In this document: one piece after another, positions 50,972 through 51,166 of the stretch
How positions within the stretch are numbered: the first letter of the stretch is position 1
How the letters are laid out: every line of letters begins with the position of its first letter
IMG/VR virus record: IMGVR_UViG_3300022912_000001
Location: 1 to 58,087 of that record
Strand: one strand, 5' to 3'
DNA: 58,087 nt
Source of the DNA: a virus
Taxonomy: Duplodnaviria; Caudoviricetes
Position numbers and translations under genes: made by a program
The notes under the pieces: generated by a model
The model's database searches: none
Told to the model about the DNA's origin: nothing
What the model saw: only the letters and a program-made list of their open reading frames with translations

Positions 50972-51166
50972 ACTGACAGGCACTACTGTTTGCTCTCCGA
51001 AGTTCCAGTAGGTGTTCCCCCACTTTAGCCTGTCAGTAATATTACATGCGCAGGAGCCTGTGCTACCCACGCCTAACGGCTTCTAAGTAGTATTGGGTGA
51101 CTGCGCTCCTATTGAGCCTGAAGCCCTGGCATACCAAAATAGCCTTTAGCATGTCAGGGTGGCTCA
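50972..51166 (+). ncRNA. Candidate structured non-coding RNA (three consecutive stem-loops)
   Basis: ACTGACAGGC/GCCTGTCAGT, AGGAGC/GCTCCT and TGAGCC..CCCTGGCAT/ATGTCAGGG..GGCTCA stems in a 250-nt gap without an ORF-track ORF. Confidence 0.5.

What the first reader, a model, noticed from the sequence alone, without database searches (positions are those of the whole stretch)
50972..51037. Hairpin loop antisense to the shared extended RBS of early genes: candidate multi-target phage sRNA
Seen: a perfect 10-bp stem (50972-50981/51028-51037) encloses an inner stem CTACTG/CAGTAG whose loop contains TTTGCTCTCC (50989-50998). Its reverse complement, GGAGAGCAAA, matches 9 nt (GGAGAGCAA) of the RBS of the genes at 48295, 48919 and 49251, 8 nt for 49910 and 56304, and 7 nt for 48641 and 52756. 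The element is on the same strand as those mRNAs, so its transcript could pair with them. Inference: an RNA that co-ordinately occludes ribosome binding on a set of early genes, which would explain why the AGCA bases beyond the SD core are conserved.
Basis: partly seen in the sequence, partly recalled or inferred. Interest (0 to 1): 0.8.

Follow-up and report, generated by a model that had tools for sequence, protein, structure and literature searches.

The report
Conserved phage RNA mirroring early ribosome sites
An uncultured marine phage and one relative keep a folded, non-coding RNA element between two early gene blocks, and one of its open loops is the exact mirror of a private tag on the ribosome-binding sites of the first early genes, so it may switch their translation off, though no experiment shows this yet.

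Summary
The hairpin at 50972-51037 exists as described. Its loop TTTGCTCTCC (50989-50998) complements the GGAGAGCA(A) tag on 7 of 73 called start sites, all in the early arm.

The hairpin is the first of three domains (P1-P3) of a 207-nt non-coding element, 50966-51172. It lies between a 73-aa ORF and a peptide deformylase gene. The window is a complete 58-kb phage record with terminal repeats.

One relative, L180 (deformylase 75% identical), has the same element. It shows 6 compensatory pairs and no broken pair. A 23-nt block holding the loop 10-mer is identical, while third codon positions are only 55% identical. The + strand folds better than the - strand (z -4.2/-4.1 against -2.4/-2.1). 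No frame stays open and no Rfam family matches.

The tag is kept at 3 of 4 orthologous genes and also sits on lineage-specific genes.

The anti-RBS reading therefore survives every test I could run, but it rests on co-conservation, not covariation. An energy test is weak (p about 0.02-0.03). No discrete transcript is shown.

Earlier notes of this scan report the same theme in other phages. Verdict: a real conserved RNA element; function as a multi-target anti-RBS regulator about 45% likely.

The parts
50966..51172 (+). Whole structured non-coding element (domains P1, P2, P3) in the 251-nt gap between the 73-aa ORF and the peptide deformylase gene
   Evidence: For 50960-51215: MFE -82.5 kcal/mol, z -4.20, 0 of 200 shuffles as good. 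The same architecture is found in L180:5753-5961, z -4.07. The - strand gives z -2.43 and -2.09. No frame stays open in both phages. No Rfam or tRNA match.
50972..51037 (+).
   Evidence: 16 of 16 modelled pairs are standard in both phages. There are 3 compensatory pairs and 2 changes to G-U. Slid controls give 22-50% paired and 0-1 compensatory pairs.
50989..51005 (+). Apical loop of the inner hairpin P1a (stem 50983-50988 / 51006-51011)
   Evidence: The 3' part of the loop (GAAGTTC) differs at 3 of 7 positions in L180 (AATGTTA).
50989..50998 (+). Anti-tag TTTGCTCTCC, the complement of GGAGAGCAAA
   Evidence: Identical in L180, inside a 23-nt identical block. Third codon positions of 11 flanking gene pairs are 55% identical over 1711 codons.
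51012..51023 (+). P1b: 3-bp hairpin GTG/CAC with a variable loop
   Evidence: A T>C variant at 51016, in this loop, appears in one RNA-run contig of X17.
51048..51106 (+). P2: long hairpin whose sequence is not conserved but which is still a hairpin in L180
   Evidence: The separate folds of both phages give a hairpin at this place. The alignment there is not reliable.
51113..51166 (+). P3: 16-bp bulged hairpin with a conserved apical part (AAA-TAGCC-TTT)
   Evidence: 19 of 19 modelled pairs are standard in both phages, with 3 compensatory pairs. Slid controls give 29-50% paired and 0 compensatory pairs.
51167..51202 (+). Conserved tail ATATATCCATTGACTTTTAAC with a sigma-70-like site (TTGACT 51175-51180, 16 nt, TAAATT 51197-51202), 12 nt before the deformylase ATG
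   Evidence: Scan hit with 9 of 12 matches. L180 has TTGACT-16-TAGATT, 9 nt before its ATG. Promoter function is inferred.
48284..48292 (+). Tagged RBS of gene 48295-48564 (GGAGAGCAA)
48632..48638 (+). Partial tag (GAGAGCA) before gene 48641-48922 (DUF7352)
48908..48916 (+). Tagged RBS of gene 48919-49251
   Evidence: Net predicted interaction -10.0 kcal/mol.
49240..49248 (+). Tagged RBS of gene 49251-49817
   Evidence: The tag is kept at the ortholog L180:3833.
49900..49907 (+). Tagged RBS of gene 49910-50365 (RadC-like JAB domain)
   Evidence: The tag is kept at the ortholog L180:4659. Net -11.7 kcal/mol.
52745..52751 (+). Tag variant GGAGAGC before gene 52756-53181
   Evidence: Identical at the ortholog L180:7808.
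56294..56301 (+). Tagged RBS of gene 56304-56492
   Evidence: The tag is lost at the ortholog L180:12391.
50742..50963 (+). 73-aa ORF whose stop lies 8 nt before P1; last gene of the upstream block
   Evidence: 64-67% identical to L180:5528-5752.
51215..51682 (+). Peptide deformylase gene directly downstream
   Evidence: phrog_2890, E 1.8e-26. Homologues carry PF01327.

Best explanation
The hairpin is domain P1 of a conserved, 207-nt, three-hairpin RNA element read from the + strand. It lies at the end of the first early gene block (start region near 47715, last ORF ending at 50963) and just before a promoter-like site that probably starts the next block with the deformylase gene.

The apical loop of P1 displays UUUGCUCUCC. 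This is the complement of the private extension (AGCAA) plus the core (GGAG) of the ribosome-binding tag AAAGGAGAGCA(A) carried by the first early genes.

Proposed mechanism: the element is made as the 3' part of the early transcript and is perhaps cut off behind the stop codon. It outlives the mRNA. Its loop pairs with 7-10 nt of the tagged ribosome-binding sites, competes with the 16S rRNA tail, and so turns down translation of the tagged immediate-early genes as infection proceeds. This would be an RNA counterpart of a translational repressor of early genes.

Shown: the structure, its conservation with compensatory changes, the strand, the absence of coding, conservation of the loop 10-mer and of the tag, and favourable predicted pairing.

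Inferred: that the RNA exists as a stable species, that loop and tag pair in the cell, and the direction of the effect (repression).
For: Structure and conservation:
- z is -4.20 (window) and -4.07 (L180) on the + strand, against -2.43 and -2.09 on the - strand.
- 35 of 35 modelled pairs of P1 and P3 are standard in both phages, 6 of them with changes on both sides. Slid controls give 0-1.
- Several pairs are G-U, which would be A-C on the other strand.
- All six frames carry stop codons in both phages, so no frame stays open.

Selection on the loop: a 23-nt block including the whole 10-mer is identical. The remaining 7 loop positions have 3 changes, and third codon positions of 11 gene pairs are 55% identical.

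The tag:
- GGAGAGCA occurs 5 of 5 times on the + strand at start sites.
- 7 of 73 start regions match the anti-tag part of the loop by 7 nt or more, all in the early arm.
- The tag is kept at 3 of 4 orthologous starts although their flanks have diverged. It is also present on genes that only one of the two phages has: window 48295, 48641, 48919; L180 3553.

Energetics: net predicted interaction (duplex plus opening of both partners) is -8.0 to -11.7 kcal/mol for 6 of 7 tagged window genes. The seventh, 48295, scored +8.7 because the chosen duplex was long-range. The 4 tagged L180 genes give -6.7 to -8.3. Three untagged window controls and 5 of 6 untagged L180 controls score above -1.

Chance of the 9-mer complement falling in the element: 0.0013-0.0018.

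Placement: the element is followed by a conserved TTGACT-16-TA(A/G)ATT site.

Weak hint of processing: one RNA-library contig (X16) ends at 50965, 2 nt behind the stop codon and 6 nt before P1, and runs on into adapter-like letters.
Against: - Only two sequences exist. Loop and tag are both unchanged, so there is no covariation between them.
- With two rows, the shuffle control cannot do better than about 1 in 8 per hairpin (62/500 and 59/500).
- The plain duplex-energy test is not exceptional. 14 of 73 start regions reach -12 kcal/mol, and 2.9% of 1000 shuffled loops and 2.0% of 5280 genomic 17-mers do as well, because any C/U-rich stretch pairs with Shine-Dalgarno sequences.
- The best-scoring duplex in that test is an untagged start (51679), and it is not kept in L180.
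- The complement 8-mer occurs at two other + strand places, inside coding sequence (30129, 49059).
- One orthologous pair lost the tag while the loop stayed (56304 / L180:12391).
- A more distant relative fragment (L181, deformylase 58%) has GGAGGGCAA at two starts, but neither the element nor a complement in its 6,006 nt.
- No U-tract follows P1 or P3, and the scan finds no terminator-like site in the gap.
- Part of the seed is predicted to be paired.
- No discrete transcript has been seen. The one RNA-library contig that spans the element (X15, 50885-51579) runs on into the deformylase gene.
Confidence: 0.45

Rival explanations
1. The element is a structural boundary between two transcription units. 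It would serve as a 3' stabiliser, a processing site (RNase III or RNase E type) and/or an unusual terminator for the first early block, followed by the promoter of the next. The loop is conserved for a protein or a tertiary contact, and its complementarity to the tag is incidental.
For: - The element sits exactly between the last ORF of the upstream block and a conserved TTGACT-16-TA(A/G)ATT site.
- P2 keeps only its shape, as a spacer or stabiliser hairpin would.
- P3's apical sequence is conserved too, although it has no complement among the start sites, so conserved loops here need not mean antisense seeds.
- The energy test is marginal.
- One RNA-library contig ends at 50965.
Against: - It gives no reason why the conserved part of the P1 loop is exactly the 10 nt complementary to the tag while the rest of the loop varies.
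- The chance of the 9-mer falling in the element is 0.0013-0.0018.
- No U-tract is present.
Confidence: 0.3
2. The element is a cis-acting leader (riboswitch-like, thermosensor or protein-binding) that controls translation of the downstream deformylase gene. In that case the TTGACT block is conserved as RNA, because it pairs with the weak ribosome-binding site of that gene.
For: RNAalifold predicts a helix between CUUUUAA (in the conserved tail) and UUGAAAG / UUGAGGG just before the deformylase ATG. Two of its U-A pairs become U-G in L180 (columns 229-235 with 251-257). The element is always directly upstream of this gene in the two phages.
Against: - No Rfam family matches, even at E up to 10.
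- The P1 loop has no complementarity to the deformylase start region (net +7.6 and -0.4 kcal/mol).
- The conserved -35/-10-like spacing, close to the ATG, is also seen at the first late gene and fits a promoter better.
- L181 has a deformylase gene without the element.
Confidence: 0.1
3. The hairpins act as single-stranded DNA, for instance as a priming or replication signal of the + strand, and not as RNA.
For: The phage encodes a DnaB-type helicase. I found no primase or polymerase among the ORFs I scanned, but I scanned only part of them. Three adjacent hairpins resemble, from my recollection, single-strand initiation signals of small phages and plasmids.
Against: - The fold relies on several G-U pairs and is clearly better on one strand. 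That is typical of RNA.
- The element lies in a transcribed arm, on the sense strand.
- This reading leaves the complementarity to the tag unexplained.
Confidence: 0.05

Closest known systems
Cuckoo / CcsR1-4 (alpha-r14) small RNAs of Alphaproteobacteria
   Same: They are adjacent hairpins whose loops carry a C/U-rich anti-Shine-Dalgarno motif (PMC4615179, abstract). [quoted passage not shown] Here the element also follows a small (73-aa) ORF and shows a C/U-rich loop.
   Different: Cuckoo RNAs carry the same motif, CCUCCUCCC, in every one of 2-4 loops. Here only one of three domains carries the anti-tag, and the motif (UUUGCUCUCC) reaches past the Shine-Dalgarno core into a phage-private spacer. 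No Rfam model matched. The element is phage-borne and would act on the phage's own genes.
c4 antisense RNA of phages P1 and P7
   Same: It is a phage RNA with complementary sequences probably placed in loops. It binds around a ribosome-binding site and blocks translation (PMC12197685, passages of section 7). From my own recollection, c4 is encoded on the same strand and in the same transcript as its target and is cut out of it.
   Different: c4 controls one operon (antirepressor) for immunity of a temperate phage. Here seven or more separate starts of early genes would be addressed in a phage with no sign of lysogeny genes among the ORFs I scanned. No match to any Rfam model, the C4 family included.
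T4 RegA (translational repressor) and RegB (GGAG-cutting endoribonuclease)
   Same: These are functional analogies only, from my recollection and the title and abstract listing of PMC3014915. Both are post-transcriptional shut-off of many early genes through their ribosome-binding regions.
   Different: These are proteins. Here the proposed effector is an RNA. Neither was tested here.
Earlier notes of this scan on other uncultured phages (e1-6195616, e1-5878402, e1-6039474, e1-6018617, e1-6219364)
   Same: The theme is the same: hairpin loops at the end of an early block that mirror a private tag (for example GGAGCA(A) or AGGAGCGAA) on early ribosome-binding sites.
   Different: These are unchecked AI notes on other DNA, and I did not see their sequences. 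Several report loop and tag changing together in sister lineages, which I could not test here. Here there is one anti-tag loop inside a larger three-domain element.

Membership tests
C4 antisense RNA (Rfam family; accession not checked here) | Match to the family covariance model | tested here: not met
   No Rfam family reaches its gathering score in the window. At E up to 10 in 50800-51350, only four chance-level hits appear (CRISPR-DR27, RNAI, SNORD87, Histone3), none to C4.
C4 antisense RNA | Loop sequences complementary to a ribosome-binding region on the same strand | tested here: met
   The loop 10-mer is complementary to 7-9 nt of seven start regions on the + strand.
C4 antisense RNA | Cut out of the precursor transcript | not testable with these tools
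   The only hint is one RNA-library contig ending at 50965 with adapter-like letters.
Cuckoo / CcsR / alpha-r14 sRNAs | 2-4 adjacent hairpins, each loop carrying CCUCCUCCC (PMC4615179, abstract) | tested here: not met
   There are three adjacent hairpin domains, but only P1a carries an anti-SD-like loop, and its motif is UUUGCUCUCC. No Rfam hit.
Cuckoo / CcsR / alpha-r14 sRNAs | Derived from the 3' UTR of a small-protein mRNA (PMC8034643, abstract) | tested here: inconclusive
   The element begins 3 nt behind the stop of a 73-aa ORF. Processing is not shown. The ORF has no DUF1127 match.
Trans-acting base-pairing sRNA (general kind) | Accessible, conserved seed with conserved targets | tested here: met
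   Seed opening cost is 2.7 kcal/mol. The seed is identical in L180. The tag is kept at 3 of 4 orthologs. Net energies are -6.7 to -11.7 kcal/mol.
Trans-acting base-pairing sRNA (general kind) | Discrete transcript with its own ends (promoter or processing site; terminator) | tested here: inconclusive
   No terminator-like site lies in the gap. RNA-library contigs cover the element in 2 of 4 runs but cannot show ends or strand.
Intrinsic terminator | G+C-rich hairpin followed by a U-tract | tested here: not met
   None of the 7 terminator-like sites of 47000-58087 lies in 50964-51214. P1 is followed by AATATTAC and P3 by ATATATCC.
Protein-coding gene / RBS of a - strand ORF | An open frame conserved in the relative | tested here: not met
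   All six frames carry stop codons in both phages. Behind the - strand GGAGAGCAAA only a 4-codon GTG frame follows.

The most novel reading that the evidence does not exclude
The element is a phage-made riboregulator, released from the 3' end of the immediate-early transcript, that addresses a private 'postcode' on ribosome-binding sites.

Any gene cassette that lands in the early block with the tag GGAGAGCA(A) is automatically placed under the same timed translational shut-off. Tagged genes differ between the two phages, and a strain variant at 48563 brings in yet another tagged start. That would explain why the tag travels with swapped accessory genes.

Together with the similar cases noted by this scan in unrelated phages, this would be a widespread, undescribed RNA counterpart of protein repressors of early translation.
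Probability: 0.35. Interest if true: 0.8.

Novelty: new variant of a known kind. Interest (0 to 1): 0.6.

Why it matters
Lytic phages must silence their first genes within minutes. The known ways are proteins: transcription switches, RegA-type repressors and RegB-type nucleases. A phage RNA that recognises a private extension of the Shine-Dalgarno sequence would be a new layer of temporal control. It would explain why spacer bases beyond the 16S-pairing core are conserved. It would also give a simple, portable, orthogonal translation switch (tag plus loop). The element is, besides, a new conserved structured RNA outside all Rfam families, from an abundant marine phage lineage seen in many seawater data sets.

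Tried and rejected
**Search for more relatives**
- blastn of 50400-51700 against the phage collection: no match.
- Protein-pattern scans of viral contigs with the deformylase gene, the RadC-like gene and the PD-(D/E)XK gene: no relative.
- With the terminase: 16 loci, all too short or not reaching the region. A DNA search of five of their records gave only chance hits.
- A broad deformylase alignment returned 80 + 80 distant loci (29-45% identity) of no use.
- Exact-pattern scans of viral contigs: 0, 2 (both unrelated by reading) and 0 hits.
- The metagenome scan gave L180 and L181.
- Covariance models of P1 (R1) and of P3 plus tail (R2), searched over the window and 182 loci (1.88 Mb), found only the window and L180.
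- Closer and intermediate deformylase homologues exist as proteins only: P0001 97%, P0003 67%, P0004 59%.

**RNA-library contigs**
- In X16 and X18 no contig lies over 51040-51206.
- Depth figures are per contig and were not used to rank genes.
- The adapter-like letters at 50965 (X16) and before 47715 (X18) are single contigs and could stem from a few reads.

**Other checks**
- The first long-duplex calculation with the whole element gave unrealistic duplexes and was replaced by a loop-restricted one.
- The 5' non-coding region 47929-48294 is not homologous to the L180 counterpart and folds only modestly (z -1.98).
- By eye the region upstream of the L181 deformylase looked tRNA-like. ARAGORN finds none.
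I neither confirm nor exclude that reading.

**Literature**
- Four searches found no paper describing a phage RNA that targets a shared tag on its own early ribosome-binding sites.
- I read passages of PMC12197685 and the abstracts of PMC4615179 and PMC8034643. Other papers were seen as listings only.
- Supplements were not opened.

Full report
**What the window is.** The window is a complete virus record of 58,087 bp with a 92-bp direct terminal repeat. It has portal, large terminase, DnaB-type helicase, Dam-type methyltransferase, Rad52-like and PD-(D/E)XK genes.
- Genes on the + strand run from about 47.7 kb over the record's end to about 7.6 kb. The structural genes lie on the - strand.
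- Near-identical DNA is held by many seawater and marine data sets, and by six metatranscriptome runs.
- No cultured phage in the phage collection is close. The best terminase hits are 22-24% identical.

**The observation.** The hairpin is exactly as described.
- Outer stem: 50972-50981 with 51028-51037, ten perfect pairs.
- Inner stem: 50983-50988 with 51006-51011.
- A 17-nt loop starts with TTTGCTCTCC (50989-50998). A second 3-bp hairpin (51012-51023) lies inside the outer stem.
- GGAGAGCA occurs five times on the + strand, each time 2-3 nt before a start codon. The complement occurs three times on the + strand.
- Of 73 called start regions, seven match the anti-tag part of the loop by 7-9 contiguous Watson-Crick pairs. 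One late gene matches 7 nt of a different part of the loop.
- Late genes use other Shine-Dalgarno variants.

**The hairpin is part of a larger element.**
- The 251-nt gap 50964-51214 lies between a 73-aa ORF and a peptide deformylase gene (phrog_2890).
- It is richer in G+C than its surroundings: 0.45-0.53 against 0.30-0.42.
- It folds into three hairpin domains: P1 50972-51037, P2 51048-51106, P3 51113-51166. The MFE is -82.5 kcal/mol and z is -4.20.
- No tRNA and no Rfam family match, not even at E up to 10.

**A relative.** Most routes to relatives failed (see Tried and rejected). The one metagenome scan gave L180, whose deformylase is 75% identical and identical to protein P0002. L180 is syntenic over at least 15 genes. 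Its gap (L180:5753-6000) has the same three-domain fold, z -4.07.
- In P1 and P3, all 35 modelled pairs are standard in both phages.
- Six pairs changed on both sides (three in each domain). Two more changed to G-U. When the 3' partners are slid by 1-3 columns, only 22-50% of cells pair and 0-1 compensatory pairs appear.
- With two rows the shuffle control cannot be stronger than about 1 in 8 per domain (62/500, 59/500).
- P2 is not alignable, yet it is a hairpin in both.
- The - strand folds worse: z -2.43 and -2.09, and for L180 -62.7 against -78.0 kcal/mol. This fits the G-U pairs. The folded strand is the + strand, the sense strand of the early genes.
- All six frames carry stop codons in both phages, so no frame stays open.
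- I regard a conserved structured + strand RNA element as well supported.

**Selection on the loop.**
- Third codon positions of 11 orthologous gene pairs are 55% identical (1711 codons).
- Against that background, P1 has a 23-nt identical block (ACAGGC...CTCTCC) that contains the whole anti-tag 10-mer.
- The other seven loop positions differ at three places.
- P3 and a 21-nt tail are also strongly conserved.

**Selection on the tag.**
- The tag is kept at window 49251 / L180 3833 and at 49910 / 4659 (GGAGAGCA), and at 52756 / 7808 (GGAGAGC), though the flanks of these starts have diverged.
- It is lost at 56304 / 12391.
- Genes present in only one phage also carry it: window 48295, 48641, 48919; L180 3553 with GGAGAGCGAA, which pairs over ten positions if one G-U is allowed.
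- Contigs of two RNA runs leave the window sequence after 48563 and continue with the tag and an ATG (table 7). A strain variant therefore has yet another tagged start there.

**Can loop and tag pair?**
- The model gives the 10-mer a 2.7 kcal/mol opening cost because of a weak 3-bp helix inside the loop. That helix is 2 bp in L180.
- Net predicted energies (duplex plus opening of both partners) are -8.0 to -11.7 kcal/mol for six of seven tagged window starts. They are -6.7 to -8.3 for the four tagged L180 starts.
- Three untagged window controls and five of six untagged L180 controls are above -1 kcal/mol. The start at 48295 came out positive because the optimiser chose a long-range duplex.
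- Against this, a plain duplex-energy count is not exceptional. 14 of 73 starts reach -12 kcal/mol, and 2.9% of shuffled loops and 2.0% of genomic 17-mers do as well, since any C/U-rich stretch pairs with Shine-Dalgarno sequences.
- The specific signal is the exact 8-10-nt complement. Its chance of falling in the 207-nt element is 0.004-0.008 for the 8-mer, 0.0013-0.0018 for the 9-mer and 0.0004 for the 10-mer.

**Context.**
- Directly behind P3 lies a conserved TTGACT-16-TAAATT (L180: TAGATT), 12 (9) nt before the deformylase ATG.
- The first late gene has a similar TTGACT-18-TATATT six nt before its ATG in both phages.
- I infer that the deformylase gene starts a new, nearly leaderless unit, and that the element is the 3' end of the first early block. 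Five of the seven tagged genes lie in that block.
- No terminator-like site is in the gap.

**RNA data.** Contigs of four metatranscriptome runs were laid on 47700-52700.
- X15 has a 695-nt contig over 50885-51579 with no difference.
- X17 covers the element at low depth, with T>C at 51016 in an unpaired loop.
- An X16 contig ends at 50965 and runs into adapter-like letters.
- An X18 contig has adapter-like letters before 47715, 13 nt upstream of the first early ATG.
- From my own knowledge of Illumina adapters, the two adapter orientations fit + strand RNA in a stranded library. But these are single contigs.
- Contigs cannot prove transcription, strand or ends.

**What it most likely is.** My best reading (0.45) is a conserved riboregulator at the end of the immediate-early block. 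Its P1 loop pairs with the tagged ribosome-binding sites and turns their translation down.
- Main rival (0.3): a structural boundary, processing or stabiliser element whose complementarity is incidental.
- Cis leader for the deformylase gene: 0.1.
- Single-stranded DNA signal: 0.05.
- A more distant fragment, L181 (deformylase 58%), has GGAGGGCAA at two starts but neither the element nor a complement in its 6 kb. That is neutral to mildly negative.

**Comparison with what is known.**
- The working principle, a C/U-rich loop masking Shine-Dalgarno regions of several mRNAs, is known from bacterial sRNAs such as the cuckoo/CcsR family. [quoted passage not shown]
- It is also known from the phage P1/P7 c4 RNA (PMC12197685, passages).
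- The element is not a member of either family. No covariance model matches, only one of three domains carries the motif, and the motif extends into a phage-private spacer.
- Four literature searches found no description of such a phage system.
- Earlier notes of this scan report the same theme in several other uncultured phages, some with loop and tag changing together. They are unchecked leads and not independent evidence. They do suggest the phenomenon is recurrent.

**Verdict.**
- Observation: confirmed.
- Interpretation: partly supported.
- Novelty: new variant of a known kind.
- Interest: 0.6.

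Noticed in passing
window 1-58087: GATC occurs only once in 58,087 bp, although the phage encodes a D12-class N6-adenine methyltransferase (3321-4133, PF02086).
   Followed up: partly
window 48563-48640: Contigs of two RNA runs (X15, X17) leave the window sequence after 48563 and continue with GGAGAGCAATATG... (table 7). A strain variant thus carries a different gene with the same tag at this junction. The tag may also mark cassette boundaries.
   Followed up: no
window 47279-47308 (-) and L180 2065-2093 (-): A conserved TTGACT-18-TATATT lies six nt before the ATG of the first late-arm gene in both phages. 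This suggests leaderless or near-leaderless first genes of both units.
   Followed up: partly
window 47715: An RNA-run contig (X18) carries adapter-like letters directly before 47715, 13 nt upstream of the first early ATG at 47728. This is a possible 5' end of the early transcript.
   Followed up: no
window 11729-20077 (-): The 2782-aa protein has only a sub-threshold SAP-domain hit in Pfam. It has no DFDxD motif and no sequence match in the PDB.
   Followed up: partly
window 47929-48294: This 366-nt non-coding stretch lies between the first small ORF and the first tagged gene. It folds modestly (z -1.98) and is not homologous to the L180 counterpart, which instead holds a CTCTCTCCTCTCTCC run.
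   Followed up: partly
window 49058-49066: A second + strand copy of TTGCTCTCC lies inside gene 48919-49251, between two tagged starts. That gene has no ortholog in L180.
   Followed up: no
L180 (whole locus) / protein P0002: A public source labels the deformylase of L180 as coming from a Candidatus Brocadiales genome bin. This could be a host hint or a binning artefact. The phage's host is unknown.
   Followed up: no
window 51664-51678: The start region of gene 51679 (GGAGGGCAAAT, inside the end of the deformylase gene) gives the strongest plain duplex with the loop, -19.2 kcal/mol with two G-U pairs. It is not kept in L180.
   Followed up: partly
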